Shown piece after piece: positions 6,912 through 44,613 of a stretch of 64,000 bases of DNA (within the stretch, counting starts at the first letter, position 1; the number at the start of each line of letters is the position of its first letter). Made by a program: the position numbers and the translations under genes. A model generated the notes under the pieces. The model had not been told where the DNA came from, searched no databases, and worked only from the letters and a program-made list of their open reading frames with translations. The DNA is from an uncultured Clostridium sp. (GTDB taxonomy: Bacteria > Bacillota_I > Bacilli_A > Acholeplasmatales > Anaeroplasmataceae): NCBI GenBank assembly GCA_946540005.1, contig CAMNHY010000002.1, forward strand, positions 2,780 to 66,779, given 5' to 3'.

Positions 6912-6947
6912 ATAATAACATAATAGATGCCACAAACCTGCAACAAA
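6912..6947 (-). promoter_or_regulatory. Direct-repeat promoter element, site 1 (TTTGTTGC-AGG-TTTGTGGC, then 11 nt, then TATTAT)
   Basis: Repeat core at 6929..6947 and -10 at 6912..6917, with a TG extension. The architecture matches the six other sites. Confidence 0.75.
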
Positions 6948-6971
6948 CAAAGATAAATTAGTTTCATATTT

Positions 6972-7009
6972 AAAAAATGAATGAAAAGAAGATTAGCTTT
7001 TCACTCATT
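6972..7009 (-). terminator. Rho-independent terminator after the 7036..9585 gene
   Basis: 13-bp stem with one mismatch (6976-6988 / 6997-7009), followed on the minus strand by TTTTTT. Confidence 0.65.
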
Positions 7010-7035
7010 TTTCAATATAAATTTTTAACTAATTT

Positions 7036-9585
7036 TTAGTTATCATTATTGCTTAAATTTTTCTCATTAACTAGTTGTTCTTCTATATTTTCAATGTTAT
7101 TATCTATGAATTTATCATCCACATCATTTTTAAGTTTACTTTCAAAACTATTTGCAAATACAGGAGAATTTGGATCTGCAGCTGCAAAATCACTTATAGC
7201 AGTTCCTACAAAAATATTATTATCTAATAAATTCATTCTATAATCATAATATTCTTTTGGGATTCTGCAGTAATTATATTCTACACTAAGCTGTGATTTC
7301 AAATTATTAACTGTCTCAGTTCTATACGCCTTTAAATTGTCATATTCTCTTTGTTTAGCTTCAACAACTTGCATATCATTACTTGTATCCATTAATTTAC
7401 TCGCTTTAAGCATTTTTTCAGTTAATAATTGCATATCTCTATTAACTGTTTCATCACGATTTAGAATTTCTCTATCAACTAATATTTTACCATTTTCATC
7501 CTTGAAGCACTTAGCATAATTTTTATATTTACCACGGCGATATGTAGCGTTAATTTCATCAACTTTCTTTATATCTTCTTCATAGTTTTCAACAGCTTCA
7601 TCTTTTTCTTTTTTAAGACTCTTTACAACCTGAATAAAATTATCAACTTTATTGACTAAGTTAACTCTTGCTAAATCTTTTCCTGTTAAACGAGTTAATA
7701 AATTACCTTTTTCATCTAATACACCATCACGTCTTTTTTCAGACTTATAAACATCAACATATCTTTGCATGTCTTCAAGTGCTTGTAATTTTTCTTCTTC
7801 ATCTTTAGCTTCATGATATTCAAATAATGAATGTAATACATTTTGATATCTTGTAGATGTACCAAATAAAGGCTTTACAGCTCTAGCTTCTTGATATAAA
7901 GAATCACCTTGTTTAAGTTTATAATTAAATGTAGCTACCTTTTCATCTTTTAATTCTGCTAATCTTTCATTTGGTAAGGCTTCATTATGAACAAGTTCGA
8001 AAACTGTTTTAGCTTTATCAAAAATATTATTAACATTTTCGCTTAAAGCTTCAAGTGATACCTTTTCCCAATCATTTTTTGTCATAATAGTAATAGCTGG
8101 AGTATTAGCATTTATAGAGGCATCTATTTTATTTTCACCATTAAACGTGATTCCTTTTTTAATTGCTTCTTGTAACTTACTAGTTCTATTCCATGCAGAA
8201 TCGATTTCTTCTTTATTTAATCCATATCCTAGTAAAGTAGCTTTTAGTGTTTCTTCTTCTAATGCTAAAACACGTGTAGCCATTTCTTCATCTATTACTT
8301 TCATAAAATTAAGAGCTGTTAATTCATTAACATTTTCTCTTATATTATCATCACCTCTAAGGAATGATGCATCATTATCAATACCTTGTACTCCAATAAA
8401 TTTATGAGTTACAGGATCAAATTGATAAAACATATTACCTGCATGTCTATCTATATTACCACATATATAATCAATTACCTGAAGATTAGCTAAGGATTTT
8501 TTCGCCTCTGGAGTATCAAAATCCTCCATTTTCATATCTCTCATGCCATCAACTGCAGGAAGAGTGCTAACATCTTTTCCTTTTGCAAAATTCATAAATG
8601 TTCCTTCAATAAATTCTTTATGTCCATCTTTATTGATTTCAATTACAACAGATCTAGATTTTGCTAAAGAATCATCTTTATTAAGAATATGTGCGATTCC
8701 ACTCATGGCGCTATTACGTTTATCAATATTATCGCCTTTTTTAAGACCTAAATTAGTTTCATTTATTAAGACACTACTCAACCAAGACTTTGCCTTTTTA
8801 TTTAATTCAGCATTAGCATAAATAAATTCTTCATCATCACTAAATTTTAATAATATTTCTTGGTCAATATCAACTGTAGTAAGTATCTCTCGAATATAAT
8901 TTTCATTAGGATTTCCATTAACAATAGGCTTTTCTGCAGGAGGTGCAGAAATGTCTCTAAAAGTTTCATTATTATTAACAGCTAAAAAATATTCTTTAAA
9001 CTTTGGATATCTGAAAATCATCTCGTTAATAATATCATTACGTTCTTTATCAGCATCAAAGAATTTGTTAGGTGTAAATACTCCTTCTACCTTTTGGCCA
9101 TCAATATCAATAGTTAAGTTAGTTCTAACACTTAAATTTCCACCTAATTGTTTTAACTCATCACTAGTAACAGGTACAATTTTATTTTTAAAATTGTCCA
9201 TCATATCCTTTAAGCTCTTATCAGAATTAACTTCTGCATTTTGGAATTCAACATATGCTTGTGATAAAAATTCTTCATTAATATTATTAACTAATTCCTT
9301 ACGAATTTTATCATTGATTAAATCATCTGAATCAAATTCTTTTTTTGAAAAAACTGCAGAAGCTTTAATCGCATCTTTGAATTGTTCTTCTAATCTTTCT
9401 TTTCCACCATCATCAAAAGGTTTATATTGATTCTCTTCATTTGGTGTATAATATTCTTCTAAAGAATTAATTAATCTACCTAATTTTTCAAGATAATCAT
9501 TCCATTCCAGATTATTTAAATTCCCCTTTATATTTTCATCCTCATTAATAAATCTCATCACATTTTTAATGTAATCTATTTTCAT
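7036..9585 (-). CDS. Paralog-family protein F; large signal-less protein with a PI3/PI4-kinase-like catalytic-loop motif
   Basis: 849-aa ORF with RBS AAGGAGG 7 nt upstream of the ATG. Residues 371-408 read IDYICGNIDRHAGNMFYQFDPVTHKFIGVQGIDNDASF, a DRHxxN ... IDxD pattern. The C-terminus has a GTSTRYQNVL module and an acidic tail like the paralogs. Confidence 0.85.
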   Translation of the reverse strand: MKIDYIKNVMRFINEDENIKGNLNNLEWNDYLEKLGRLINSLEEYYTPNEENQYKPFDDGGKERLEEQFKDAIKASAVFSKKEFDSDDLINDKIRKELVNNINEEFLSQAYVEFQNAEVNSDKSLKDMMDNFKNKIVPVTSDELKQLGGNLSVRTNLTIDIDGQKVEGVFTPNKFFDADKERNDIINEMIFRYPKFKEYFLAVNNNETFRDISAPPAEKPIVNGNPNENYIREILTTVDIDQEILLKFSDDEEFIYANAELNKKAKSWLSSVLINETNLGLKKGDNIDKRNSAMSGIAHILNKDDSLAKSRSVVIEINKDGHKEFIEGTFMNFAKGKDVSTLPAVDGMRDMKMEDFDTPEAKKSLANLQVIDYICGNIDRHAGNMFYQFDPVTHKFIGVQGIDNDASFLRGDDNIRENVNELTALNFMKVIDEEMATRVLALEEETLKATLLGYGLNKEEIDSAWNRTSKLQEAIKKGITFNGENKIDASINANTPAITIMTKNDWEKVSLEALSENVNNIFDKAKTVFELVHNEALPNERLAELKDEKVATFNYKLKQGDSLYQEARAVKPLFGTSTRYQNVLHSLFEYHEAKDEEEKLQALEDMQRYVDVYKSEKRRDGVLDEKGNLLTRLTGKDLARVNLVNKVDNFIQVVKSLKKEKDEAVENYEEDIKKVDEINATYRRGKYKNYAKCFKDENGKILVDREILNRDETVNRDMQLLTEKMLKASKLMDTSNDMQVVEAKQREYDNLKAYRTETVNNLKSQLSVEYNYCRIPKEYYDYRMNLLDNNIFVGTAISDFAAADPNSPVFANSFESKLKNDVDDKFIDNNIENIEEQLVNEKNLSNNDN

Positions 9586-9603
9586 TTTAAAACCTCCTTA
9601 AAT

Positions 9604-20399: not shown

Positions 20400-20408
20400 A
20401 ATCCACCT

Positions 20409-21812: not shown

Positions 21813-21826
21813 ATCTTTGGTCCTCC

Positions 21827-22591: not shown

Positions 22592-22608
22592 AATTTTTAT
22601 ACCATTTC

Positions 22609-22923
22609 CTATGCTGGGAATTCGTAGTTTCTATACCAATCTGTGAAAATATTTACTGCGAATTGAAGAGCGATTAATAGTACGAAAATAAGTACGAATC
22701 CAATAATCGCATTTTTTAAGCTATTTCTAGCTTTCTCATGTTCTTGTGGATCTTCTGCCTTAGCATATTTTACACCAAGGAAAATTACCCAGATGGCTCC
22801 AAGAGAACCAACCACACCAAGAAGTACAGGTACAACTACACCAAGTACATCTAATAATGGTTTAACAATTTGATTTAAATCCTTTTCAGAAAGAGCTAAT
22901 ATAATATTGAACATAAAACACAC
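22609..22923 (-). CDS. Small two-TM protein, VirB2/TrbC pilin-like candidate
   Basis: 104 aa with two hydrophobic helices separated by a charged loop (KYAKAEDPQEHEKARNSLKN). This is the typical size and topology of T4SS pilin-like subunits. The start codon is uncertain (an alternative ATG lies 3 codons in). Confidence 0.4.
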   Translation of the reverse strand: MCFMFNIILALSEKDLNQIVKPLLDVLGVVVPVLLGVVGSLGAIWVIFLGVKYAKAEDPQEHEKARNSLKNAIIGFVLIFVLLIALQFAVNIFTDWYRNYEFPA

Positions 22924-22984
22924 ATCTCCTTTAATTTATATTTTTTCTTATATAATAATATGTCGGATTTACATATTACTAACG

Positions 22985-33062: not shown

Positions 33063-33066
33063 TCCT

Positions 33067-35478
33067 TTAAATTGACTTTTCCACAGTAAGTACTGCAGTT
33101 AATACATTATTATCTATTTCATAATTAGAATCAGCTATAAATGTAGCAGTTACATTAAATACACCAAATTCTAATACACCATCACTTCCAAGAGATACAC
33201 CATCAGATTGTCTCTTATATTCATAAGTAACTGAAACACCATTTGGAAGATTTTCAGGTTGAATAGTAATAAAGATTGTATTATTACTACTAATTCTTAC
33301 ATACATATCAGATTCAGTTAGAGTTACAACTTTATCTGTTAATGCATAACTACTTAAATCAATAAATTTCTTTTCTATTGTTAGATAGAAAGTTGTATCA
33401 GGTACAGGATTATAATTTAGTTCATCATATGCATATGAAACAGTTAACATATAATAACCTACATTTGATGTATAAACAGTCTCTACAAAGTCTTCTGCAA
33501 CCTTAACTTTTGAAACAATAGATTTAATTGTTATACCTTCTGCTAAATTCTTAAATGCTTCATTTGAATCAAGAAGACTATCTAAATTATTAGGATTATA
33601 ATAATCATTACCATCAAATTCTTTAGTAACATCGTTAACAACAAACTTTGATAAATCATAATTAGCTTTAGTAATCTTTAATTGACCTATTATTTGTTTA
33701 GTTCTATAAGTATCCTTAGATATTTCCCAAACAATTGTATAAGTACCAACATCTTTAAATTCTTCTCCTTCAGGATAAGAAACAGATGTACCAACAGGTA
33801 ATTCTTTATTTACAGCTAATCCATGCATGTTTCCATCATATACATATTCCGCATTTATTAACTGAATATCATCTTCAAATGTTATAGAATATGAAACAGT
33901 TCCTGATGCAGGAGCTAATATAACGCTTGAATTTTCGATTTCATCGATAAATGCAAAATTAATTGTATAATCATACTTTTTACCATCTGCAAATTCACTT
34001 ACATCTTTTACTTCTTGTTTAGTATTAAAATCAAGATATTGAATCTTTTTTATAACATATTCATCTTCAATAAATCCTGCAATTTCTATTTTTTTATTAC
34101 CAGTTTCTTGATCAACTATTAATTTTAAATCCTTAGCTTCAATAGTTCTCTTTTCTCCACTATCATCATATACTTGTGGCGCTTCTCTAATTTTATTGAT
34201 AATTAAATAGGCTACAAGTTCATTAATATCTAATTCTTCATTTGGATTACTGTCACTAAATTTAGCAACCACTTTATATTCACCTGCAGCAATTTGATTA
34301 TTATTTTCATATGTTACAGATACATTTTGTGGTAATTTACCACTAATCTCAAGTGAATGTGATTCTCTATTAAAATTAACAGTTTTACTATTAAATGTAA
34401 TAACTCCATCTATATTAACTTGTTTTTTTGTTACAACAAGTTTAGCTTCCATAGGAGCTATAGATTCATAATTTAAATTATTGCTCTTAAATGATGCAAC
34501 TATCTTATATTCACCGGCATTAGATGTAGAAGTTACTTCTTCACCTTTTGAATTATAATATTTAAAAGAAGCTTCAACACCGTTTGGAATTACTGATTGT
34601 CTATCAAATGATGCAACATATTCTTGACCATCATACTCTTTTACATAATCAGATAATATGACATTTGACATATCATATTTTGTCTTTGTAATAGTAAGTC
34701 GAGCTTTCATTGTTGAAGTTTGATCATAATTCTCATCTTTTGCGCTAAACTTAGCTACAATAACATAATTACCTGCATTTACTGCATTATTTAATTTAAT
34801 TGTTTCATCCTCATTCCAAATTTCATAATCTACACTTACACCTTGAGGAAGATTTGTAGCCTCTATAGTTTTAGGTTCACCATTATATTCACAAATCTTA
34901 TTTAAAAATACTACTTTAGATAAATCTATTTTAGCCTTTTCAATAATAAGTTTTGTCTTTAGTGTTTTAGCTTCATATCCATCTTTTGAAATAACAGCTA
35001 CAACTTCATATTCACCCGCATTTGTAAATGTATTTCCATAAGGATAATCAACTGTAGCACCCTCAGGTACTTCATAATTGATTTCAACCTTATGAGGTTG
35101 ACCATCATATACACATGTATAGCCTTCTAATTTATAAATATCATCAAAATCATGGCTAACAACATTTATTTTAAGTGTTGTAGTATGTCTTCCGTATTTG
35201 ACTAATACATCATGTTCACCCATTTTGTAAAAGTTTAATCTTTCTTCTTCAGGAATCATATTTTCAGTTAAATTAACTTCAGACACTTCACCGTTTGTAT
35301 AGATGACTAATACTTTAAGTCCATCGTATGAAAAATCTCCAGCTTTAACTTCAATAGCTTCCTTAGTATTCATTTCAATTCTATCTATTGCGCCTTTACC
35401 TCTGCATCCTGCTAGAATAAATATCAATACTAAAGATAAGGTGGATAATATTTTAAATATATAATGTTTAGATTTCAT
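33067..35478 (-). CDS. Repeat-rich surface lipoprotein (tandem YDG/NAGEY Ig-like, MBG-like modules); first gene of the T4SS operon
   Basis: The ORF track gives 33067..35532. I prefer the ATG at 35478 (MKSKHYIFKILSTLSLVLIFILAGC), which yields a signal peptide plus lipobox. About 8 modules repeat Y(D/N)G...H/K...NAG(E/N)Y.V. Confidence 0.8.
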   Translation of the reverse strand: MKSKHYIFKILSTLSLVLIFILAGCRGKGAIDRIEMNTKEAIEVKAGDFSYDGLKVLVIYTNGEVSEVNLTENMIPEEERLNFYKMGEHDVLVKYGRHTTTLKINVVSHDFDDIYKLEGYTCVYDGQPHKVEINYEVPEGATVDYPYGNTFTNAGEYEVVAVISKDGYEAKTLKTKLIIEKAKIDLSKVVFLNKICEYNGEPKTIEATNLPQGVSVDYEIWNEDETIKLNNAVNAGNYVIVAKFSAKDENYDQTSTMKARLTITKTKYDMSNVILSDYVKEYDGQEYVASFDRQSVIPNGVEASFKYYNSKGEEVTSTSNAGEYKIVASFKSNNLNYESIAPMEAKLVVTKKQVNIDGVITFNSKTVNFNRESHSLEISGKLPQNVSVTYENNNQIAAGEYKVVAKFSDSNPNEELDINELVAYLIINKIREAPQVYDDSGEKRTIEAKDLKLIVDQETGNKKIEIAGFIEDEYVIKKIQYLDFNTKQEVKDVSEFADGKKYDYTINFAFIDEIENSSVILAPASGTVSYSITFEDDIQLINAEYVYDGNMHGLAVNKELPVGTSVSYPEGEEFKDVGTYTIVWEISKDTYRTKQIIGQLKITKANYDLSKFVVNDVTKEFDGNDYYNPNNLDSLLDSNEAFKNLAEGITIKSIVSKVKVAEDFVETVYTSNVGYYMLTVSYAYDELNYNPVPDTTFYLTIEKKFIDLSSYALTDKVVTLTESDMYVRISSNNTIFITIQPENLPNGVSVTYEYKRQSDGVSLGSDGVLEFGVFNVTATFIADSNYEIDNNVLTAVLTVEKSI

Positions 35479-35575
35479 AAATCTACACCCCACTTTTATA
35501 AAAATCAAATTAAATTTGATTATAAAACTCAATGTCTGTGCTGATTAAAGCCCATTGTCCTATTCTACTATTCAT

Positions 35576-35611
35576 ATTTTATCAATTGTAGTGCCACAAA
35601 CCTGCAACAGA
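35576..35611 (-). promoter_or_regulatory. Direct-repeat promoter element, site 4 (TCTGTTGC-AGG-TTTGTGGC, then 11 nt, then TAAAAT); drives the T4SS operon
   Basis: Repeat core at 35593..35611 and -10 at 35576..35581, preceded by TGA. Confidence 0.7.
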
Positions 35612-35659: not shown

Positions 35660-35664
35660 CAATA

Positions 35665-38600
35665 CTATTTTAATATTTCTCTTATTTTAGACTTATATAC
35701 ATCTTTTTCTTCTCTGTAAATAATCTTAAAATTCATTCTAAGAAGTTTTAATTTATTATTCTTTTTTCCAATTTTAAATACTCTCTTAGATTTTAAATTA
35801 ACTAATGTCCATTTATTGAATATAAAGAACATTGAAATATATGCAATAATTAGAACAAGTACTAAAATAACTACAATTATAGTAACTAATCTAGTAATAA
35901 TACTGATATTATTAGTTTTTTCTAATTCACTATATTTATTTTCGCTTTGTTCAAGCTTATCTAAATTAATTACTAGTCCTTTTTCAGAATCATCTAATGC
36001 ATCATAAGCCTTTCTTGCCTCTTTAATTTGAGATTTAGTTAAATCATTTAAAGAAGTTACTTCGCCTATCGCATTTATTTGTCTATATACAACTCCAACC
36101 TCATTATAGATTTTTTCTGCTGAAGTTAATATAACTAAATTTTTAACATAAAACTTTTGATTTTGAGTTAAAGCTGAATAAGCATTTTTAGCATTATTAA
36201 TTCTATTTCTTACCTCTTGATTATATTTTACTTCACCAATTAAATTAATTAACTCATCAACTCTATTTGCCTCAGCTACATCATCTAATAATTCTTGATA
36301 TTTTGTCTCAGAAGCTAATAAAACTTGATATGAAGTAACAAATGACTTTTGACTATCAGTTAATGCGACATAAGCTTCTCTAACTTCTAGAATCTTATCA
36401 TTAGACTCAAGTGTAACATTACCAATCGAATTAATTAATTCATCAATAGTTGACGCAATTCTTTTATCTTCAACAAGAGCCGCATATTTTGTTTGGGCTA
36501 ACTCTAAAGTTTCTAATTGAGTTATAAATGATTTTTGTCTATCAGTTAACGCGTCATAAGCTGTTCTTGCAGCATCTATTTTATTTTTAGAAGCTTCATC
36601 TAATTGAACTTCTCCAATTAAATTAATCAATTCATCTGTTTCTAAAGCCCTAGATTTATCTGAAAGAATTAATTCAAAAGTATTCTCATCATCTCTTAAA
36701 GTTTCATAATTTGTAACAAGCTTCTTTTGATCTTCTGTTAATGAATTATAAGCTTGTCTTGCTACCTTAATTTTTTCACTAGATTCAATTGTAACTTCTC
36801 CAATTGAATTAATTTTTTCAATAACGGCAGATGCTAAATTATTATCATTTTGAAGTTCATTATAACGATTTTCTGCATCTGATAATGTCTTATAATTTGA
36901 AACTATATCTTTATATGCATTAGATAAAGATTCATATTTAATTCTTGCGTTATCTATTTTTTCTCTAGATTCAGCACTATACATTACTTCTCCAATTGAA
37001 TTAATTAGAGACATTGTATCATCAATAGATTTAACATCTTCTTTTGCACTATTTAGCGCTTGATTAATATTATCAGTTTCCAAAGTTACATCATCAACTG
37101 TAGATTTTTGATAATCATTAATTTCTTGTGCATTATTTATTGCCTCCATTAATATAGTGGCAACAGGAACATATTTATCTTTTATTGAATTTAGATATTC
37201 ATTAGAAGCGTTTATACTATTTACTAAATCAGTTCTATCTGGCGCATTTATTTTTACTATTATTATTGTTTCTTCGCTACTAGCATAAGATAAATAATGT
37301 TCATTACCAGGGCTTCTAGTATATATTACATACTCACCAATATCTAATCCTTTAGGAATAAATGTTGACCAATATCCACCTTCAAATTTAAATTCAAATA
37401 CTGCATCATCACATTTACTAAAATCAAGTAATTCTTGTTTCTCACCAGTATAATATAAATCTTCATTAGCTTTTGGTAATTGAGGCGTACCTTTTACAAC
37501 GCTTACTGTTTGATGATACTCACATTCATTTAATCCAGCCTTAACTTTATAATAGATTGTATAATCACCTAATTCTTTAAAAGTAGGTGCTTCATCTAAA
37601 TCATAAGTTCCCATTTCTAATCCATATTTAACCTCATAATCACTTGGTTTAAAATTATTATGGAATTGAATGCTATAATCAATATTTCTATATGGAACGC
37701 TTGTATCCTTTGCAGGATAATCTATGATTAAATTATCTCCTTCTTCTATTACTATTTTATTATCGTGAATAACAAATAATTCATTACAATCTTTATCGGC
37801 AGCTGTATAAGCCATTGTAGGATAGTAATTATAAATAGTGCCTCTTCTAATATAATCAAGGCCAATTTTGCTATCTGCAGTTAAAGCGCCACTAAGACTA
37901 AAAATATCCTTTTGACTAGGATGACTAACAGTTATATCAGAAGGTGTGCCATCCTTTAATTTATTATCAAAAATATATAAATTACCTTCTATAAACAATT
38001 TAGCTTCTTCTAAAATAGCTGCCGGAGAACTTCCTGATATATTATCTTTAATAACTGTTTTACCTGAAATAGTTAAAAAATTATTATTTGCACCGTGATA
38101 TACTCCACCAGCCATTCCATCAGCCACATTAGCTATAATATTTACATCTTTTAATGTAATTAAACTATTGTTTCTCTTTACCCATGCATAATAAATAGCT
38201 CCACCGTTGCCTGTCGTACTATTACCAATAATAGTTCCACCATACATTTTTAACTCAGTAGTGCTTCCACTTCTAGAAGTACCAGGCATAAAGATAGCTC
38301 CACCATTAGGACTATCTTTAGCTCCTGTAATATATCCACCTCTAAATGTTAAATAGTCAGATTCAAAACTATCATCAACAATTCCTAAGCCTGTAGTTGA
38401 ATCAATTTTGTATTTATGTTCTAATTTATTACAATCATAAATACAAATATTTCCACCACCAGGAACTTCAATAACATTTTTACCTTCACTATTTAAAATG
38501 ATTCCATGACCATTTAAACATAATTTAGTATCAGTTTTAGGATGCCATGTATCAGTTATAGTGACATCTGATTCTAAATAATAATTACCACTACTTGCAG

Positions 38601-38793
38601 GTAATGAATTGGTATCACTCCACTTAACAAATGTTAATTCATTATGTGTATGAGTCTCTTCTTCATTCTCACCGGAGTTATTATCAATTTCTTCTGCATG
38701 AAGATTAATAGATTGATATTTATTTATATAAATGAATACTCCTAGAAATAAACTAAACATTATTAATATTTTTGAAATAAGTGATTTTTTCAT
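35665..38793 (-). CDS. Large surface protein: signal peptide, Pmp-like beta-helix (GGAI repeats), Ig-like region, six ~57-aa helical repeats, C-terminal TM anchor
   Basis: 1042 aa. GGAIF/GGAIYY/GGVY motifs occur in the N-terminal third. There are 6 repeats of the pattern INSIGEV-x-KI-AR-AY-LT-QK-V-Y-L-E-Y. A hydrophobic anchor lies near the C-terminus. Confidence 0.8.
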   Translation of the reverse strand: MKKSLISKILIMFSLFLGVFIYINKYQSINLHAEEIDNNSGENEEETHTHNELTFVKWSDTNSLPASSGNYYLESDVTITDTWHPKTDTKLCLNGHGIILNSEGKNVIEVPGGGNICIYDCNKLEHKYKIDSTTGLGIVDDSFESDYLTFRGGYITGAKDSPNGGAIFMPGTSRSGSTTELKMYGGTIIGNSTTGNGGAIYYAWVKRNNSLITLKDVNIIANVADGMAGGVYHGANNNFLTISGKTVIKDNISGSSPAAILEEAKLFIEGNLYIFDNKLKDGTPSDITVSHPSQKDIFSLSGALTADSKIGLDYIRRGTIYNYYPTMAYTAADKDCNELFVIHDNKIVIEEGDNLIIDYPAKDTSVPYRNIDYSIQFHNNFKPSDYEVKYGLEMGTYDLDEAPTFKELGDYTIYYKVKAGLNECEYHQTVSVVKGTPQLPKANEDLYYTGEKQELLDFSKCDDAVFEFKFEGGYWSTFIPKGLDIGEYVIYTRSPGNEHYLSYASSEETIIIVKINAPDRTDLVNSINASNEYLNSIKDKYVPVATILMEAINNAQEINDYQKSTVDDVTLETDNINQALNSAKEDVKSIDDTMSLINSIGEVMYSAESREKIDNARIKYESLSNAYKDIVSNYKTLSDAENRYNELQNDNNLASAVIEKINSIGEVTIESSEKIKVARQAYNSLTEDQKKLVTNYETLRDDENTFELILSDKSRALETDELINLIGEVQLDEASKNKIDAARTAYDALTDRQKSFITQLETLELAQTKYAALVEDKRIASTIDELINSIGNVTLESNDKILEVREAYVALTDSQKSFVTSYQVLLASETKYQELLDDVAEANRVDELINLIGEVKYNQEVRNRINNAKNAYSALTQNQKFYVKNLVILTSAEKIYNEVGVVYRQINAIGEVTSLNDLTKSQIKEARKAYDALDDSEKGLVINLDKLEQSENKYSELEKTNNISIITRLVTIIVVILVLVLIIAYISMFFIFNKWTLVNLKSKRVFKIGKKNNKLKLLRMNFKIIYREEKDVYKSKIREILK

Positions 38794-38839
38794 GCTAATT
38801 CACTCCTTTTTTTCATAAATAAAAATATTTCTTTATTAT

Positions 38840-38875
38840 ATTCTAGCAAATAGCCTGCAACAAACCTGCAACAAA
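38840..38875 (-). promoter_or_regulatory. Direct-repeat promoter element, site 5 (TTTGTTGC-AGG-TTTGTTGC, then 11 nt, then TAGAAT)
   Basis: Repeat core at 38857..38875 and -10 at 38840..38845, preceded by TGC. Confidence 0.75.
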
Positions 38876-38904
38876 AAAAGATGAATAACGAAAATCATTA
38901 TTCA
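38873..38904 (-). terminator. Rho-independent terminator after the 38917..40440 gene
   Basis: Stem TGAATAA / TTATTCA (38882-38888 / 38898-38904), followed on the minus strand by TCTTTTTTT, which merges into the distal repeat of site 5. Confidence 0.55.
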
Positions 38905-38916
38905 CCTTTCTATTCC

Positions 38917-40440
38917 TTAAATTGATTGATTTAAATCTTTTTCGTCTTCTACTTCTAAGTCTAGATCAATCTTATTATCTTTTTCTACCAATACGAATTC
39001 TTCAAGATCTTTTTCTTCAACTGCACTTTCTTTAGAAATTCCTAAATCTTTTGGTAAAAGTGCATTAATAGAAGCGTTTATTTGTCCTCTAATTTTCACA
39101 TCATCTTGTTGCATCTCAGAAACTACAGACATTGTGTTTAAAACTAAATTAGTTCTAATTTGTCTTAATTCATCCATGTCTTCTAAGTTCTTACCACTCT
39201 GATTTACATGATGCAAATATTGTTCACCAGCTTCACGAAGATTATCTTTATTTAAATATCCTTCTTTTGCAGGATTAGTATAATCTTTTAAAGCTTGCAT
39301 ATAATTTTGGAATTCTTGTGAAGGCTTTCTAAAGACTCTTGCAATAAATCCACCAGCCATTTCTTTTTCAACATTAAAGATATTATATGTCTTTCCTAAT
39401 TTTTCGCTCATTCTCTTTTGGAATTCAAGGCTATATCTGTTTTGGAAAGCTTTAGATACTTCATTTAATTTTAATATCTCATCCTTACTTCTTTCAACAA
39501 CTTCAACATTAGGTTTATTTGAAATGAAATCCATTAAACTTACTTCTTTTTTCTTTCCAGTTTCTGGATCTGTGTGTACACATTTATATTTTAAGAATAT
39601 ATTCTTGTCGATTTTAAGACCTTTTTCTTCTAATTTCTTACAATAATCAGCTAATGATAAATCATTATCTTTGTCTCCCCTTTGTCTTGAAAGAATACTT
39701 GTAATATTTTGAGGTATTTTAAAACCAAATACTTTTTTAGAATTTCTCATTACTAAATTAGCTTTTTCTTTATCTAAATCAGGTAGGGCGAAGAAATCTA
39801 CTTCTTCACATTCTTTAATTAATGTACCAGAATAATTAATTTTTTGAATTAAACCCTTCATTGATTCTTTAGCCTCTTTAAGTTCTGGTGGTACTCCTAA
39901 AGAATTCATGTAAAATATATCACCAAAGCGATTTGCTTCATGACATAATGCTAAATTATCACGATAAAATTCCATAAGTTTAACTTTATCATTACCTAAA
40001 TCAATTAACTCTTGAGGATTATAATTCATTGCATTTTTAATTCTATTATGAGTAAATTCAACAGGATACTTAGCGTATGATTCTAATAAATTCTTATTAT
40101 ATTCTTTACTTTCAGGAGAACCATCAACCTTTAATAAGAACATTATACTTTCAGCTAAATAATTTTTATCACTTTCAGGCATTTTAATACCTACAGAAGC
40201 TTCATTATATGCGGCTTTATGTTTAGCAGTAAGTTCTTTAATTTCTTGCGCAATACGATATCTTGCGACCATTTCTTCATTATTTAATTTATCCTCTAGT
40301 TGATTATTCACAACATTTTTATTCAATAATGTCAAACCAGTCTCATTAAAAAAGTTATTATATTTAGTTAAATATTCTTCATTTTTAGTTTTAATAATAT
40401 TCTTTTCTTCATCAGTTAATCCTAAATATTTTTTTGGCAT
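38917..40440 (-). CDS. Paralog-family protein B (507 aa), function unknown
   Basis: RBS GGAGG is 9 nt upstream. The protein is collinear with protein A. The C-terminal module is AGGFIARVFRKPSQEFQNYMQAL, followed by an acidic tail (LDLEVEDEKDLNQSI). Confidence 0.88.
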   Translation of the reverse strand: MPKKYLGLTDEEKNIIKTKNEEYLTKYNNFFNETGLTLLNKNVVNNQLEDKLNNEEMVARYRIAQEIKELTAKHKAAYNEASVGIKMPESDKNYLAESIMFLLKVDGSPESKEYNKNLLESYAKYPVEFTHNRIKNAMNYNPQELIDLGNDKVKLMEFYRDNLALCHEANRFGDIFYMNSLGVPPELKEAKESMKGLIQKINYSGTLIKECEEVDFFALPDLDKEKANLVMRNSKKVFGFKIPQNITSILSRQRGDKDNDLSLADYCKKLEEKGLKIDKNIFLKYKCVHTDPETGKKKEVSLMDFISNKPNVEVVERSKDEILKLNEVSKAFQNRYSLEFQKRMSEKLGKTYNIFNVEKEMAGGFIARVFRKPSQEFQNYMQALKDYTNPAKEGYLNKDNLREAGEQYLHHVNQSGKNLEDMDELRQIRTNLVLNTMSVVSEMQQDDVKIRGQINASINALLPKDLGISKESAVEEKDLEEFVLVEKDNKIDLDLEVEDEKDLNQSI

Positions 40441-40468: not shown

Positions 40469-40504
40469 AATATAACATATCGAACGCAACAAACCTGCAA
40501 CAAA
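40469..40504 (-). promoter_or_regulatory. Direct-repeat promoter element, site 6 (TTTGTTGC-AGG-TTTGTTGC, then 11 nt, then TATATT)
   Basis: Repeat core at 40486..40504 and -10 at 40469..40474, preceded by TGT. The core begins only 11 nt after the response-regulator stop codon. Confidence 0.75.
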
Positions 40505-40514
40505 AAAATAATTA

Positions 40515-41291
40515 TTAAAAATCTTTTAATTCTTCACTATCATTAAATAATGCCCATGAATACTGAATCATATATTCTCCTCTATACATTCTGATAGCAT
40601 CAGGATTTCCTTTTTTGTATTCGTATGCATCACAGTCTATTTTAGTAGGGTCTATGAAGCATTCATTATGTCTTTTAATGAAGACATCTTCACATCCTAC
40701 TTCTTTTAATGTATCTTGCAAATCAGCTATTAAATTTCTTAAATAAGATTTATGATCTTCTTCCCATAATATGGCATTAAGTTCATTTATATTAGATGAA
40801 GATCCTTCTCTATCAACAAGATAGGCAAATAATTCTTTTGATTTTTGTCTATGAAATTTTAAAGGAATTCCATCTTTGAAAACTTCAAAATTTCCAAAAC
40901 ATTTGACTTGTAATGGTTTTGTCTTCTTTAGTTCAATATTATATCTTAATCCTTCAATTTCATTTTTAACTTTAACTTCTGTAACTGGTTTCATTACATA
41001 TCCTGATGCATGTAATTTATATGCATCAAGTGCGTAATTATCATATGCAGTAACAAAGATAATATTAACTTGTGGATTTATAGCCTTTAATTTTTTTGCA
41101 AGAATAATGCCATTAATTTCGGGCATTTCTACATCTAGAAATGCAATATCTATTTTCTCATTAATCCTCTCATTATAAGCCTTTTTAGGATTAGTATAAC
41201 AATAATATGTTGCATCCGGCATTATTTTTCTACAAGTTTTTTCTAAACGAATTAATTGTAATTCCTCATCATCAACTAATAAGATTTTCAT
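40515..41291 (-). CDS. Two-component response regulator: receiver domain plus SARP/BTAD-type winged-helix DNA-binding domain
   Basis: I prefer the ATG at 41291 (MKILLVDDEE), with GAGGTG 4 nt upstream; the track start is 41303. Receiver motifs: LLVDDE, FLDVEMP, FVTAY, K in VMKP. The C-terminal part reads VKCFGNFEVFKDGIPLKFHRQKSKELFAYLVDREG...LWEED, typical of SARP-like wHTH domains. Confidence 0.8.
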   Translation of the reverse strand: MKILLVDDEELQLIRLEKTCRKIMPDATYYCYTNPKKAYNERINEKIDIAFLDVEMPEINGIILAKKLKAINPQVNIIFVTAYDNYALDAYKLHASGYVMKPVTEVKVKNEIEGLRYNIELKKTKPLQVKCFGNFEVFKDGIPLKFHRQKSKELFAYLVDREGSSSNINELNAILWEEDHKSYLRNLIADLQDTLKEVGCEDVFIKRHNECFIDPTKIDCDAYEYKKGNPDAIRMYRGEYMIQYSWALFNDSEELKDF

Positions 41292-41299
41292 AAGACACC

Positions 41300-42562
41300 T
41301 CACTTCTTTAATGTAACTGTTATTTTAGTACCAACATTCTTTTTACTAATAATATTTAAATCTCCTTCACACGTATGACTAATACGATAACTTATATTTT
41401 TTAATCCAAAATGTACATTTTCATCAAAATCAATTTCATTTAAATCAAATCCAATACCATCATCTTTTACCTCAATGACATAGCTTGAATCAGTTTCATA
41501 AGTGGTTAATGTAACTGTTCCACCTTCAATTTTTTTCAAAATTCCATGTTTAATAGCATTTTCAACTAGCGGTTGAATTGTTAGAGGTGGAATTGAAAAA
41601 TCTTTTGTGCCTATATCATAAATAATATGTATTCTATCCTTAAATCTCATCTTTTCTAATGAAACATATGTTTCTATATGTTTCAATTCATTTTCAAATG
41701 GAATAAGTCTTGTCTCTGTTAAAGATGATAAGTTTTTTCTTAAATATTCTGTAAAATCATCTAATGACTTTTGAGCCTTATCTGGATCAATACTAATAAG
41801 TGTTGAAATAGCAGATAGTGAATTATATATAAAATGTGGTTGAATTTGAGAAATCATAAGCTTTACATGAGCTTCTTTATTCTTTTCTTCTTGTTTGGAT
41901 AATTCTATGTTTTTTTCAACATTTGCAAAGAAGAATAAAATTTCAACTGTTATAATAATAGATACATAACCTATCGCATATCCACTATATATATTTTGGA
42001 AAATAATAGCTAATACAGGTAGCAAGCAATAAATTATAAATGCTGCCTTTTCTCTTTTTTTAAGTTTTTGAGTAATTGTTGTAACAAGTATTATTACTGA
42101 AAACATTATGAATTCATATCCTTGTGATATGAACATTGTTTTACTTCTTATATATTCCCCATTTTGAGAATAAAAATATATCGATGTTGGAATATTTATA
42201 ATATCTGTTATTACAAATATCGCAAACAAGATATTATTTAATAATGATAATCTTTTATTTAATTGATTAGATAAATTAATATAGCTAACCATATATTTGA
42301 ACAAAATATAGACTTCTATATTGTTCATAATATAAAAGGATGTATAGAAAGCTATTATTAAATCATCACTAGTATAAAAATTTTTAATTATGTTAAAAAT
42401 TAAATAAATTGAAAAATGGATTACATTAAATATCATAAATACTAAAAGCCATTTTTCGTCAGCTCTTTTATTTTTCTTAATTATTAAATTAACAATGTGA
42501 ATTAAAAATATCATTATTCCTATTCCACATATTGTTATTTTTATTCCCGCATTCGCATTCAT
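41300..42562 (-). CDS. Sensor histidine kinase, LytS/YehU (His_kinase PF06580 + HATPase) type, with a multi-TM sensor
   Basis: 420 aa with about 6 N-terminal TM helices. H-box QIQPHFIYNSLSAISTLI, N-box PLVENAIKHG, and G-boxes DDGIGF / GLKN. Confidence 0.85.
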   Translation of the reverse strand: MNANAGIKITICGIGIMIFLIHIVNLIIKKNKRADEKWLLVFMIFNVIHFSIYLIFNIIKNFYTSDDLIIAFYTSFYIMNNIEVYILFKYMVSYINLSNQLNKRLSLLNNILFAIFVITDIINIPTSIYFYSQNGEYIRSKTMFISQGYEFIMFSVIILVTTITQKLKKREKAAFIIYCLLPVLAIIFQNIYSGYAIGYVSIIITVEILFFFANVEKNIELSKQEEKNKEAHVKLMISQIQPHFIYNSLSAISTLISIDPDKAQKSLDDFTEYLRKNLSSLTETRLIPFENELKHIETYVSLEKMRFKDRIHIIYDIGTKDFSIPPLTIQPLVENAIKHGILKKIEGGTVTLTTYETDSSYVIEVKDDGIGFDLNEIDFDENVHFGLKNISYRISHTCEGDLNIISKKNVGTKITVTLKK

Positions 42563-42735: not shown

Positions 42736-42785
42736 ACAAAAAAATCCTATAAACTTTTACATTTTTTGTAATTGTTTATAGGATT
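42736..42785 (-). terminator. Rho-independent terminator after the 42792..44555 gene
   Basis: 12-bp perfect stem AATCCTATAAAC / GTTTATAGGATT (42743-42754 / 42774-42785), followed on the minus strand by TTTTTTT. Confidence 0.7.
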
Positions 42786-42791
42786 TATATT

Positions 42792-44555
42792 TTATTCTTC
42801 TTTAAAATCAGCTATTTTTTTAGCTAATAAATCAATCTTATAATAATCAAAATAATCTACATCAATATCTACTTCAAATGCACCCTCATCACCTACATAA
42901 GTTTGTCCTTGTGGTTTAACAACATGCATGTATGAAGAATTAGCAATTATTTGTCCATTTGGTAATACCATACTTCTTAGTACACATTCTCCACCACCAG
43001 CTTTATTACCCATTATTTTTGCAACATTTTGTGCTTGGCAAAAGAAAGGATATGCAGTACCACATGAGAACGCAACAGGGCTTGTTAAAAGATAAAAATT
43101 GAATTTATTTCCATATGAATCTTTTTCATCATATTTTCCATCATTATTTGTATCTACACGTAAAGTATCTTTATATATACTATTTGCTAGATTATCATAG
43201 AAATATTCATATCCATAATTATCTTTAGATAGCAAGGCTATTAACTTACCCATAATTTCGGCATCTCCACCACTATTAATAGACATGTCAATAATTACGT
43301 TTTCTACCCCACCTTTTTTATCTATTTCAGCAAGATTACATTTGATTTTAAAATATGTATCTACTAATGCTAAATCTTCATCTTTTTGTCTTTTCTTATC
43401 TTTAGTTAAATAATCAGATGTATCATCAAATTCATCTAATGTAATCATTGCGGTTTTACCATCAGTTGAATATCTTACACCATTCTTTTCTAATGATAAT
43501 GATTTATATGCACTATTTCTTTCTTTTTTTAATGAATTACCTAAGATTACTCTATCTGCAGACATACTTTGAGGAATTTCCATATCAGAAACTTCTCCCC
43601 AAGGCAAGCTTTCTTTAATTAATACTGTATGATCATCATCAAGACCACTAATTAAACAGCTTAATCCATTAGCTCTATCTTTAGCACTACTACTATTTAA
43701 TAGTTTTGAATAACTAAAAGCTTCAAAATATGTAGACATCTTATCTCCAATTCCCTTTTGAGCTCTTAATCCATAAAAATTATCAAACATGAAATAAAAA
43801 TAATTTTTATTATAATCTATTAAATATTGTGGCATAGTTTCACTAGTATAATTTTTCATTTCTTGATAAGCTGTAGTCTCTTCTAATTTTTCATTTTCAT
43901 ATTTTTGAAGGCTTAAAGCTTTATAATCTGAAAATGATAGAATAGATTTATAATTATAAAAATTTCTATTAGTATGAAGTGGTTGTATAACAGAGTCAAG
44001 CATTGCAAATGGAAAATATGTTTTATCTTTTTCTCTAAAGACTTTAAATCCATATCCTGAATAATTAATATTATATTTCTTTTCTCCGCTTATTAATTCT
44101 ACTTTGTGACTCAATTCTAAACCTGATGATGTTAGATCAGTTGAATCATTAAATGATCTTATTACATCTTCCATTCTTCCATTTACTATAATACTTGATT
44201 TAGCTAAATCAAATTTATAATAAACTTTTGTTTCTTTATTAGAATAAACTAAATCAATATAATCATTTTTATCTGAAAAAGAAGCTTGATTATAAAGTTC
44301 TTCTCCAAGTAAAGCTGAATAACTTACAATATCAATATATGGAATATAATCTTCTCCTTCTATGAATTTAAGTTTTAATTTAGTGTTATCTTTATATGTA
44401 CTATATTTAATTACGTTTTGACTATCTGCACTATAATCTCTTAGAGATATTACACTAACATCTTTTTCAAAAGTTTTAAATCCAGTATTACCTGAACATG
44501 AAATAAGTGCAAAAAGTATTAGTAGTGGCAAAAATATTTTGAATAATTTTTTCAT
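42792..44555 (-). CDS. Lipoprotein, S41 (tail-specific/C-terminal processing) peptidase-like
   Basis: Lipobox LISCSG. The segment VIIDMSINSGGD resembles the S41 LDLRxNxGG block. FSCG and NKAGGG sit where the S41 Ser/Lys dyad blocks would be. The family call is tentative. Confidence 0.45.
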   Translation of the reverse strand: MKKLFKIFLPLLILFALISCSGNTGFKTFEKDVSVISLRDYSADSQNVIKYSTYKDNTKLKLKFIEGEDYIPYIDIVSYSALLGEELYNQASFSDKNDYIDLVYSNKETKVYYKFDLAKSSIIVNGRMEDVIRSFNDSTDLTSSGLELSHKVELISGEKKYNINYSGYGFKVFREKDKTYFPFAMLDSVIQPLHTNRNFYNYKSILSFSDYKALSLQKYENEKLEETTAYQEMKNYTSETMPQYLIDYNKNYFYFMFDNFYGLRAQKGIGDKMSTYFEAFSYSKLLNSSSAKDRANGLSCLISGLDDDHTVLIKESLPWGEVSDMEIPQSMSADRVILGNSLKKERNSAYKSLSLEKNGVRYSTDGKTAMITLDEFDDTSDYLTKDKKRQKDEDLALVDTYFKIKCNLAEIDKKGGVENVIIDMSINSGGDAEIMGKLIALLSKDNYGYEYFYDNLANSIYKDTLRVDTNNDGKYDEKDSYGNKFNFYLLTSPVAFSCGTAYPFFCQAQNVAKIMGNKAGGGECVLRSMVLPNGQIIANSSYMHVVKPQGQTYVGDEGAFEVDIDVDYFDYYKIDLLAKKIADFKEE

Positions 44556-44577
44556 ATAAACCCTCCTTTTCTTTTAT

Positions 44578-44613
44578 ATTATACAAAATAGATTGCCACA
44601 AATTTGCCACAAA
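44578..44613 (-). promoter_or_regulatory. Direct-repeat promoter element, site 7, variant (TTTGTGGC-AAA-TTTGTGGC, then 11 nt, then TATAAT)
   Basis: Repeat core at 44595..44613 and -10 at 44578..44583. The spacing matches sites 1-6, but the 3-nt linker differs (AAA instead of AGG). Confidence 0.7.

What the first reader, a model, noticed from the sequence alone, without database searches (positions are those of the whole stretch)
6912..44613. Seven promoters share an 11-bp-periodic direct repeat at a fixed distance from the -10 box, defining one regulon across the accessory block
On the coding (minus) strand each site reads TTTGT[T/G]GC-N3-TTTGT[T/G]GC. N3 is AGG in six sites and AAA in one.

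Plus-strand cores: 6929-6947, 12227-12245, 17652-17670, 35593-35611, 38857-38875, 40486-40504 and 44595-44613.

In all seven, a -10 hexamer starts exactly 11 nt after the proximal repeat. The hexamers are TATTAT, TATTAT, TATCAT, TAAAAT, TAGAAT, TATATT and TATAAT. Six of seven have an extended -10 TG.

The position where a -35 hexamer should sit (16-18 nt spacer) is the non-consensus CAGGTT. This is the layout of activator-dependent (class II-like) promoters.

The transcription units driven are:
- paralog A
- paralogs C and F
- paralogs E and D
- the whole T4SS operon (lipoprotein, VirD4, giant adhesin, pilin-like, lipoprotein, VirB6-like, VirB4)
- the Pmp-like surface protein
- paralog B
- the S41-like lipoprotein

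One cis-element tying a conjugation machine, surface proteins and an uncharacterised protein family together suggests they act as one system.
Basis: seen in the sequence. Interest (0 to 1): 0.85.

Follow-up and report, generated by a model that had tools for sequence, protein, structure and literature searches.

The report
Response-regulator box at seven promoters
Seven promoters in this rumen-bacterium gene block carry the same 22-bp direct-repeat box at a fixed distance from the -10 element, and the box is most likely the binding site of a two-component response regulator encoded inside the block, which would switch on a type IV secretion machine, surface proteins and a family of unknown proteins together.

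Summary
Seven minus-strand sites read TTTGTKGC-N3-TTTGTKGC (one has TCTGTTGC), none is expected by chance, all are intergenic, and each lies exactly 11 nt upstream of a -10-like hexamer.

The block encodes a histidine kinase (41300-42562) and a response regulator (40515-41291). The regulator has a receiver domain, an OmpR/SARP-type winged helix and a ~45-residue stub of a BTAD domain (the COG3947 "SAPR" type).

Two independent scans link box and regulator:
- 80 rumen metagenome loci chosen only by regulator homology hold 75 boxes at period 11, against 1-11 at other periods. In 47 of 71 usable loci a box lies 4-136 nt after the regulator's stop codon.
- At least 119 genome loci chosen only by the DNA pattern are mostly rumen or gut Bacillota, and about 25 encode a homologous regulator within 8 kb.

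In relatives the box sits upstream of homologs of the same genes: the first T4SS gene, the Pmp-like protein, the A/B family and the S41 lipoprotein.

The layout (8 conserved + 3 free bp, twice, covering the -35 position) matches PhoB and SARP boxes. The likely mechanism is tandem binding with activation of the housekeeping-sigma polymerase. Binding, activation and the signal are untested. This is a new variant of a known kind.

The parts
6912..6947 (-). Box TTTGTTGCAGGTTTGTGGC, 11 nt, then TATTAT. Promoter of protein A (5369-6868).
12210..12245 (-). Box TTTGTTGCAGGTTTGTTGC, 11 nt, then TATTAT. Promoter of proteins C and F (7036-12198). The true start of C is probably 12174.
   Evidence: start codon inferred from the GGAGG site and from the match of MGQLFE to the N-terminus of D
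17635..17670 (-). Box TTTGTTGCAGGTTTGTGGC, 11 nt, then TATCAT. Promoter of proteins E and D (12278-17584).
35576..35611 (-). Box TCTGTTGCAGGTTTGTGGC (one mismatch), 11 nt, then TAAAAT. Promoter of the T4SS operon (17733-35532).
   Evidence: the box is conserved upstream of orthologous MBG-lipoprotein genes in L003, L137, L163, L176 and L192
38840..38875 (-). Box TTTGTTGCAGGTTTGTTGC, 11 nt, then TAGAAT. Promoter of the Pmp-like surface protein (35665-38793).
   Evidence: 14 boxes upstream of homologs in relatives
40469..40504 (-). Box TTTGTTGCAGGTTTGTTGC, 11 nt, then TATATT. It lies 10 nt after the regulator's stop codon and is the promoter of protein B (38917-40440).
   Evidence: 47 of 71 related loci have a box 4-136 nt after the regulator's stop codon
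44578..44613 (-). Box TTTGTGGCAAATTTGTGGC, 11 nt, then TATAAT. Promoter of the S41-like lipoprotein (42792-44555).
   Evidence: conserved in L125, L127 and L141
42666..42701 (-). Degenerate box ATAGTTGCACTTTTTCGAC (5 of 16 positions off) with TAATAT at 11 nt, or gtgTATAAT at 9 nt. Probable basal or weakly autoregulated promoter of the kinase and regulator genes.
42738..42782 (-). Hairpin (cctataaac...gtttatagg) plus T7. Probable terminator between the S41 gene and the kinase gene.
   Evidence: read from the sequence; not listed by the scanner
41300..42562 (-). Sensor histidine kinase. About six membrane helices (residues 3-216), no large outside domain, then His_kinase (PF06580) and HATPase_c.
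40515..41291 (-). Response regulator, 258 aa. Receiver domain, OmpR/SARP-type winged helix and a BTAD stub of about 45 residues. Proposed to bind the boxes.
17733..35532 (-). T4SS operon: MBG_3 lipoprotein, VirD4-type coupling protein, 2545-aa protein, T4SS pilin, 254-aa and 467-aa proteins, VirB4-type ATPase.
5369..17584 (-). Proteins A, F, C, D and E. They have no signal peptide or membrane helix and share an acidic C-terminal tail.
35665..40440 (-). Pmp-like surface protein (signal peptide plus C-terminal membrane helix) and protein B.
42792..44555 (-). S41-peptidase-like lipoprotein.

Best explanation
Each site is a 22-bp regulator box made of two 11-bp direct repeats, each with about 9 conserved bases (TTTGTKGCA) followed by 2-3 free ones. 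The box covers the place where a -35 hexamer would sit and ends 8 nt before an extended -10 element of the housekeeping-sigma type.

The proposed binding protein is the response regulator encoded in the block at 40515-41291. The proposed sequence of events is:
1. The neighbouring membrane kinase (41300-42562) phosphorylates the regulator in response to an unknown signal.
2. Two regulator molecules bind head-to-tail, one per repeat, on one face of the helix.
3. They replace the missing -35 contact by touching RNA polymerase, as PhoB and SARP activators do.
4. This switches on seven transcription units together: the T4SS operon, two surface proteins and six signal-less proteins A-F.

**Shown:** the element, its fixed geometry, its conservation upstream of orthologous genes, its genomic association with this regulator family, and the regulator's domain type.

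**Inferred:** binding, the direction of regulation (activation), the polymerase contact and the signal.
For: **The element is real and under selection.**
- Seven sites occur against 0-0.08 expected, and all are intergenic on the coding strand.
- In 78 unique sites from the window and its relatives, information is confined to the two repeats, the TG and T-A-...-T of the -10. The flanks carry almost none.

**The regulator is of the right type.**
- Pfam finds Response_reg at residues 7-116, and D53, T81 and K101 are invariant among homologs.
- The AlphaFold2 model has a sheet, three helices and a hairpin after the receiver domain.
- The best Foldseek matches are full-length OmpR/PhoB regulators: DrrB, DrrD, VanR, RpaA and the PhoP-DNA complex.
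- A profile of the C-terminal domain hits EmbR (E = 0.005), AfsR (0.06), then DrrB, SaeR and KdpE.
- 11 of 24 homologs reach Pfam Trans_reg_C, best E = 1.2e-7.
- JGI names homologs 'two-component SAPR family response regulator'.

**Box and regulator go together, tested from both directions.**
- 80 loci were chosen by regulator protein only (613 kb). They hold 75 boxes at period 11, against 1, 2, 5, 7, 3, 11, 7 and 3 at periods 8, 9, 10, 12, 13, 14, 21 and 22. The -10 lies at 11 nt in 71 of 75.
- 47 of 71 of these loci have a box 4-136 nt after the regulator's stop codon, against 0 of 71 in a control window inside the kinase gene.
- At least 119 loci were chosen by DNA pattern only. About 25 encode a homologous regulator within 8 kb, often ending 10-60 nt before the box.

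**The regulon is conserved.** In relatives the boxes drive homologs of the window's target genes.

**The geometry matches the known class.**
- The AfsR box is two 11-bp repeats with the first 8 bp contacted and the last 3 free. It overlaps the -35, and SARP repeats lie close to the -10 (PMC10936776).
- The PhoB site is a 22-bp region of two 11-bp direct repeats (PMC3978041).

**No alternative sigma factor** appeared in the Pfam scans of the 36 longest ORFs of at least 100 aa.
Against: - Nothing has been measured: no binding assay, transcription start or expression data.
- The window regulator itself does not reach any Pfam DNA-binding model. Only its homologs and its predicted fold do. The model is of moderate quality, with pLDDT 74.8.
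- Six of seven promoters have an extended -10 (TGn), which can work without a -35. They may therefore have basal activity, and the box could serve repression.
- The BTAD helices that seat sigma region 4 in AfsR are absent here, so the polymerase contact cannot be copied from AfsR.
- 24 of 71 related loci have no box after the regulator gene. L001 has none within 10 kb, and in L004 the T4SS promoter lacks it.
- The recognition helix is nearly invariant, so no co-variation between protein and box could be used as a test.
Confidence: 0.75

Rival explanations
1. The box is an operator. The same regulator, or another tandem-binding protein, sits on it and blocks RNA polymerase at promoters that are otherwise active through their extended -10 elements. 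The regulon would then be repressed rather than activated.
For: - Six of seven promoters carry TGn plus a good -10, a type that can work without a -35.
- The box occupies the polymerase-binding region.
- According to the abstract of PMC11825685 (listed), OmpR/PhoB-family regulators can act as activators or repressors.
Against: - The distance to the -10 is fixed to the base pair in 71 of 75 boxes across diverged genomes. That is expected when protein and polymerase must touch. An operator only has to overlap the promoter.
- No -35-like hexamer survives at any of the seven sites.
- The same box layout in SARP and PhoB systems activates transcription.
Confidence: 0.12
2. The box is read by a different factor encoded elsewhere, such as an unlinked OmpR-type regulator or an alternative sigma factor that uses TGTKGC as its -35. 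The neighbouring two-component system would be just another member of the regulon.
For: - No binding data exist.
- About 94 of the 119 pattern-selected loci show no homologous regulator within 8 kb.
- By my own recollection, other OmpR-family sites such as WalR's TGTWAH-N5-TGTWAH have a similar TGT-N8-TGT layout.
Against: - The box is strongly linked to this regulator gene: 47 of 71 loci against 0 of 71 in the control.
- The link holds across regulator homologs down to 37% identity in Clostridia.
- The -10 is of the housekeeping type with TG.
- A duplicated -35 at an 11-bp period is not how sigma factors read DNA.
- No sigma factor gene appeared among the 36 longest ORFs of at least 100 aa that were scanned.
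Confidence: 0.08
3. The repeats are leftovers of a promoter cassette copied along with duplicated genes, or of a small mobile repeat, with no shared regulation.
For: Several targets are paralogs (A with B; C, D and E), so their promoters could have been duplicated with them.
Against: - Outside the box and the -10 the seven regions do not align, and the flanks of 78 sites carry almost no information.
- Unrelated genes (the first T4SS gene, the S41 lipoprotein, the Pmp-like protein) carry the box.
- It is kept at orthologous promoters whose flanks have diverged beyond alignment.
- Only 5 of 129 pattern hits in other genomes lie inside a long same-strand ORF.
Confidence: 0.02

Closest known systems
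SARP activators (AfsR, ActII-ORF4, DnrI, EmbR) and their direct-repeat boxes
   Same: - The winged helix is the closest sequence match: EmbR at E = 0.005 and AfsR at E = 0.06 with the C-terminal profile. The EmbR alignment runs into the start of the BTAD domain.
- The box is two 11-bp direct repeats with the first 8 bp conserved and the last 3 free. It overlaps the -35 and lies close to the -10.
   Different: - SARPs have no receiver domain. This protein has one and is paired with a kinase.
- The BTAD of AfsR has 7 helices over about 150 residues, and helices 3-7 seat sigma region 4. Here only about 45 residues follow the wing.
- The host is a low-GC Bacillota or Mollicute-like bacterium, not an actinomycete.
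- If the start site lies 7 nt after the -10, the box would centre near -31.5, against -29.5 for the afs box. This is inferred from spacing.
OmpR/PhoB-family response regulators (PhoB and the pho box; PhoP, DrrB, VanR)
   Same: - Receiver domain plus winged helix. The best structural matches over both domains are DrrB, DrrD, VanR, RpaA and the PhoP-DNA complex.
- The PhoB site is a 22-bp region of two 11-bp direct repeats. By my own recollection it replaces the -35 about 10 bp upstream of the -10.
   Different: - The window protein does not reach the Pfam Trans_reg_C model.
- It carries an extra BTAD stub.
- Its kinase is of the PF06580 (LytS/YehU-like) type rather than the HisKA type usual for this family, the latter being my own knowledge.
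COG3947 / 'two-component SAPR family response regulator' (annotation class)
   Same: JGI gives this name to close homologs. By my recollection of the COG description, the class has the same domain order: receiver, winged helix, BTAD-like.
   Different: The class is only an annotation label. My searches found no study of a member, a binding site or a regulon. The box and its targets described here would be the first.
LytTR-type regulators (AgrA, ComE, LytR) paired with PF06580 or AgrC-like kinases
   Same: - The kinase has a multi-pass membrane sensor and a PF06580 domain.
- The receiver domain scores best against BtsR and LytR models.
- The target promoter sits next to the regulator gene, and the sites are direct repeats.
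   Different: - No LytTR domain is present. The output domain is a winged helix by fold and by profile.
- The repeats are 11 bp apart, not the roughly 21 bp that I recall for LytTR sites.

Membership tests
OmpR/PhoB-family response regulators | N-terminal receiver domain with the phospho-acceptor aspartate | tested here: met
   Pfam Response_reg at E = 1.3e-18, residues 7-116. D7, D8, D53, T81 and K101 are invariant in 42 homologs.
OmpR/PhoB-family response regulators | C-terminal winged-helix domain of the Trans_reg_C type | tested here: inconclusive
   The window protein has no Pfam hit, even at E < 1. However, 11 of 24 homologs hit Trans_reg_C (best E = 1.2e-7). The model shows a sheet, three helices and a hairpin, and the top Foldseek hits are OmpR/PhoB regulators aligned over both domains.
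OmpR/PhoB-family response regulators | Binds tandem direct repeats spaced one helical turn apart | not testable with these tools
   The DNA pattern fits: period 11 only. Binding itself was not measured.
SARP family | OmpR-type DNA-binding domain with SARP sequence signature | tested here: met
   The best PDB sequence matches of the C-terminal profile are EmbR (E = 0.005, residues 17-120) and AfsR (E = 0.06).
SARP family | Complete BTAD/BTA domain (7 helices, about 150 residues) | tested here: not met
   Only about 45 residues with two short helices follow the wing. No Pfam BTAD hit. The AfsR BTA spans residues 120-270.
SARP family | Target promoters with 11-bp-spaced direct repeats overlapping the -35, with the 3' repeat close to the -10 | tested here: met
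   The unit is 8+3 bp, repeated twice, and the box ends 8 nt before the -10. Compare.
LytTR-family response regulators | LytTR DNA-binding domain | tested here: not met
   No LytTR hit in Pfam or NCBIfam beyond the receiver domain. The output domain is a winged helix.
COG3947 / SAPR-type response regulators | Receiver domain, winged helix and BTAD-like tail in one protein | tested here: met
   Domain order. The name is given by JGI to homologs of 72-79% identity. The COG model itself was not available to score.
Conjugative T4SS (the regulated machine) | VirB4 ATPase and VirD4 coupling protein | tested here: met
   P-loop_TraG at E = 7e-19 (17733-20399), T4SS-DNA_transf at E = 5e-55 (30609-33062) and T4SS_pilin at E = 2e-9.
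Conjugative T4SS (the regulated machine) | Relaxase and integrase or replication functions next to the machine | tested here: not met
   No relaxase, integrase or Rep family appeared among the 36 longest ORFs of at least 100 aa that were scanned, at E <= 0.01. No tRNA gene is present. Proteins without any Pfam hit could hide a novel relaxase.

The most novel reading that the evidence does not exclude
The box and its receiver-SARP regulator may form the dedicated switch of a non-conjugative type IV secretion system in wall-less, Acholeplasmatales-like rumen bacteria. The six signal-less proteins A-F share an acidic C-terminal tail, and at least one has a fold with no solved relative. They would be its secreted substrates. 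The promoter box would then give a way to list such substrates in uncultured gut and rumen Bacillota.
Probability: 0.3. Interest if true: 0.75.

Novelty: new variant of a known kind. Interest (0 to 1): 0.55.

Why it matters
- It gives a whole annotated but unstudied class of response regulators (receiver plus SARP-type winged helix) a candidate DNA site and a candidate regulon. The prediction can be tested directly with a gel shift and a reporter.
- The box is short, strict and common in rumen and gut Bacillota. It could be used to read out what these two-component systems control in uncultured organisms. The targets seen so far are mostly large surface proteins and, in this lineage, a T4SS with no relaxase in view.
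- It suggests that the layout known from Streptomyces SARPs and from PhoB (11-bp repeats in place of the -35) is also used in low-GC bacteria by a hybrid protein that lacks most of the BTAD domain. That raises the question of how this protein contacts RNA polymerase.

Tried and rejected
- **LytTR regulator.** I expected one because the kinase is of the PF06580 type. Rejected: there is no LytTR domain and the output domain is a winged helix.
- **Alternative sigma factor.** None appeared among the 36 longest ORFs of at least 100 aa scanned with Pfam, and the -10 is of the housekeeping type.
- **Mobile repeat or copied promoter cassette.** Rejected because the flanks carry no information.
- **Literature.** A search for the motif words returned only unrelated papers. 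Searches for COG3947, the SAPR family, or BTAD-containing response regulators in Clostridia found no study of the family.
- **Co-variation.** The regulator's recognition helix is nearly invariant, so co-variation with box variants gave nothing usable.
- **Function of the targets.**
  - Protein B gives a confident model (pLDDT 84) with no PDB fold match; the best E-value is 0.4.
  - Proteins C and F have no PDB sequence match.
  - Pfam and NCBIfam give nothing above threshold for A-F.
- **RNA genes.** Rfam and tRNA scans of the window found nothing.
- **Limit of the genome scan.** It therefore gives no total count and no full list of sites in any one genome.
Full report
**1. The observation**

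An exact search for TTTGTKGCNNNTTTGTKGC finds six sites, all on the minus strand. None occurs in 100 dinucleotide-preserving shuffles. Allowing two mismatches adds only 35593-35611, whose distal repeat is TCTGTTGC; this gives seven sites against 0.08 expected.

- N3 is AGG six times and AAA once.
- A -10-like hexamer starts exactly 11 nt after the proximal repeat in all seven.
- TGn precedes the hexamer in six.
- The -35 position reads CAGGTT.

The window is 90% coding, yet all seven sites are intergenic and on the coding strand. They lie 10-88 nt after the upstream gene, usually just after a hairpin plus T-run. Outside the box and the -10 the seven regions do not align. A relaxed scan adds one intragenic hit on the other strand and one degenerate box at 42683-42701.

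**2. What surrounds the sites**

The window has about 27% G+C, and every long ORF is on the minus strand. Pfam identifies these parts of the block:
- a VirB4-type ATPase (17733-20399)
- a T4SS pilin (22609-22923)
- a VirD4-type coupling protein (30609-33062)
- an MBG_3 lipoprotein (33067-35532)
- an S41-peptidase-like lipoprotein (42792-44555)

Its kinase (41300-42562) has His_kinase PF06580 and HATPase_c domains. Its response regulator (40515-41291) has a receiver domain at residues 7-116 and about 140 further residues without a Pfam hit.

The kinase has about six membrane helices and no large outside domain. Outside the block lie a phosphonate ABC transporter on one side, and a helicase and a type III CRISPR-Cas locus on the other.

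**3. The regulator**

Several lines place its output domain among OmpR/SARP-type winged helices:
- The C-terminal part starts LQVKCFGNFEVFKDGIPLKF...SKELFAYLVDREG.
- NCBIfam alignments to CreB and VanR-B run to about residue 200.
- JGI names close homologs 'two-component SAPR family response regulator', and NCBI names them as coming from Acholeplasmatales or Bacilli MAGs.
- An AlphaFold2 model (pLDDT 74.8) shows a receiver domain, then a small sheet, three helices and a hairpin, then two short helices.
- The best Foldseek matches in the PDB are full-length OmpR/PhoB regulators aligned over both domains: DrrB, DrrD, VanR, RpaA and the PhoP-DNA complex.
- A profile of the C-terminal domain from 24 homologs, down to 37% identity, best matches the SARP protein EmbR (E = 0.005). 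That alignment runs through the winged helix into the start of the BTAD. Next come AfsR (0.06), DrrB, SaeR and KdpE.
- Eleven of the 24 homologs reach Pfam Trans_reg_C.

The protein is therefore a receiver domain fused to a SARP-like winged helix with only a BTAD stub of about 45 residues. It is not a LytTR regulator, as the kinase type might have suggested.

**4. Box and regulator go together**

I tested this from both directions.

*Loci chosen by protein only.* A metagenome scan with the regulator alignment gave 80 rumen loci totalling 613 kb, with 67-100% identity.
- With up to two mismatches, these loci hold 75 boxes at period 11. Periods 8, 9, 10, 12, 13, 14, 21 and 22 give 1, 2, 5, 7, 3, 11, 7 and 3.
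- TANNNT lies at exactly 11 nt in 71 of the 75, and 53 of the 80 loci have a box.
- Of 71 loci with at least 150 nt after the regulator gene, 47 have a box 4-136 nt after its stop codon. A control window inside the kinase gene has none.

- About 17 would be expected in the whole collection under uniform base composition; this is my own calculation.
- 69 of the 80 titles shown are rumen or gut Bacillota. The 11 others, such as Ignavibacteria and Flavobacteriaceae, are about what chance would give.
- Only 5 of 129 hits lie inside a long same-strand ORF.
- In these loci of at most 8 kb, about 25 encode a protein homologous to the regulator's C-terminal domain, often ending 10-60 nt before the box.

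**5. The regulon is conserved**

In the protein-selected loci, the first gene after a box was compared with the window's proteins.

| First gene after the box | Boxes |
|---|---|
| Pmp-like protein homolog | 14 |
| A/B family homolog | 14 |
| MBG lipoprotein that opens the T4SS operon | 5 |
| S41 lipoprotein homolog | 4 |
| C family homolog | 1 |
| Kinase | 1 |
| No homolog in the window | 26 |
| No ORF found | 10 |

Orthologous promoters keep the box and the -10 at the same spacing while their flanks have diverged beyond alignment. In 78 unique sites, information is confined to T-T-T-G-T-K-G-C-A-S (twice), the TG and the T-A-...-T of the -10.

The kinase and regulator genes also sit next to the T4SS operon in L003, L004 and L005. 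There are exceptions. L001 has no box within 10 kb. In L004 the T4SS promoter lacks the box and shows another repeat instead.

**6. Likely mechanism**

The box is built like the sites of the two best-studied relatives.
- For AfsR, the site is two 11-bp direct repeats. The first 8 bp are contacted and the last 3 are not. It overlaps the -35, and a side-by-side dimer carries sigma region 4. In SARPs generally the 3' repeat lies 8 bp from the -10 (PMC10936776).
- For PhoB, the site is a 22-bp region of two 11-bp direct repeats (PMC3978041).

Here the unit is 8-9 conserved bases plus 2-3 free ones, repeated twice, and the 22-bp box ends 8 nt before the -10. The best reading is as follows: the phosphorylated regulator binds as a head-to-tail pair and activates a housekeeping-sigma promoter that has no -35.

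The protein lacks BTAD helices 3-7, which form the seat for sigma region 4 in AfsR. The polymerase contact is therefore more likely of the PhoB type, or something new.

Binding, activation and the signal are all inferred. The main rival is repression, because extended -10 promoters can work without a -35. I rate it lower because base-pair-exact spacing to the -10 across diverged genomes is what a protein-polymerase contact requires.

**7. Corrections to the transcription units**

- A hairpin plus T7 (42738-42782) lies between the S41 gene and the kinase gene. It is followed by gtgTATAAT and a degenerate box with 5 of 16 positions off. The kinase and regulator genes probably have their own basal promoter, and any feedback is weak.
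- Some relatives are wired for direct feedback. In L128 the box is directly upstream of the kinase gene. In L004 the order is box, a 358-aa gene, kinase, regulator.
- The start codon of C is probably 12174, not 12198.
- A and B are 28% identical over their full length. C, D and E are 29-35% identical. F has no BLASTP match to the others.

**8. What the regulon may do**

- A-F have no signal peptide or membrane helix. The Pmp-like protein, the S41 lipoprotein and the MBG lipoprotein have export signals.
- All six A-F proteins end in an acidic tail with a shared F-x3-L-[EK]-x-D-[VL] ... [ED]-N-[ED]-L pattern.
- Protein B folds confidently (pLDDT 84.4) into a mainly helical structure with a disordered tail and has no match in the PDB.
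- No relaxase or integrase appeared among the ORFs scanned.

A T4SS that exports A-F is therefore possible, but it is not tested.

**9. Origin and novelty**

A JGI rumen metagenome contig (L125) is 99.3% identical to window 39562-46653, and a MAG contig (L080) is 85% identical. The source is an uncultured rumen bacterium of the Bacilli/Acholeplasmatales group.

The kind of element is known: a tandem winged-helix site replacing the -35. The regulator class is annotated but unstudied, and my searches found no description of this box. I rate it a new variant of a known kind, of moderate interest.

Noticed in passing
window 5369-17584 and 38917-40440 (minus strand): All six proteins A-F lack signal peptides and membrane helices. 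They end in an acidic tail with a shared pattern, F-x3-L-[EK]-x-D-[VL] ... [ED]-N-[ED]-L. F, which has no BLASTP similarity to the others, shares this tail. It could be a common export signal for the co-regulated T4SS.
   Followed up: partly
window 38917-40440 (minus strand): Protein B gives a confident AlphaFold2 model (pLDDT 84.4, pTM 0.78). It is mostly helical with a small sheet and a disordered C-terminus (469-507). It has no structural match in the PDB; the best Foldseek E-value is 0.4.
   Followed up: yes
window 5369-46453: The T4SS block has VirB4, VirD4 and a pilin. No relaxase, integrase or replication protein appeared among the ORFs of at least 100 aa that were scanned, and there is no flanking tRNA gene. 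It may not be a conjugative element.
   Followed up: partly
window 7036-9585 (minus strand): Protein F has weak, below-threshold Pfam hits to PI3_PI4_kinase (E = 3e-4) and to the Membrane Localization Domain of bacterial toxins (E = 5e-4). This is a hint only.
   Followed up: no
L004 about 10760-10930 and 14220-14590 (also L005): In this relative the T4SS operon and the 1094-aa gene lack the box. Both upstream regions contain GGACTTTACAAA-like repeats, so a different regulator may have taken over these promoters.
   Followed up: no
L146 1645/1775, L147 9983/10113, L036, L155 3484/3765/3984: Some relatives carry two or three complete box-plus-(-10) modules 130-280 nt apart upstream of one Pmp-like gene. 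These look like tandem promoters.
   Followed up: no
L161, L170, L171, L174, L160 (15567): In more distant relatives the box, often as the variant TTTGTGGCGCTTCTGTGAC, drives small ORFs of 61-67 aa near the two-component system. These could be peptide signals or bacteriocin-like products.
   Followed up: no
window 53403-62051 (minus strand): A type III CRISPR-Cas locus lies here: a Cas10-like protein, three RAMP proteins, Cas6 and Cas1. It is preceded by a 1039-aa superfamily-1 helicase with a DUF2726 domain at 49987-53106.
   Followed up: no
window 46483-49280: The right edge of the block holds short and fragmentary genes: a zinc-ribbon membrane protein, a DUF6088 protein, a 123-aa RhuM fragment and several 40-50-aa ORFs. 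This suggests decayed mobile or defence genes at the boundary.
   Followed up: no
L041 (second regulator, 5097-5681 minus strand): One Lachnospiraceae locus has two regulator paralogs. The one with a different recognition helix (KQKQIDVIVRSL) is followed by a box variant, TTTGTTGGACATTTGTTGGACA. This is a single possible case of protein-site co-variation.
   Followed up: no
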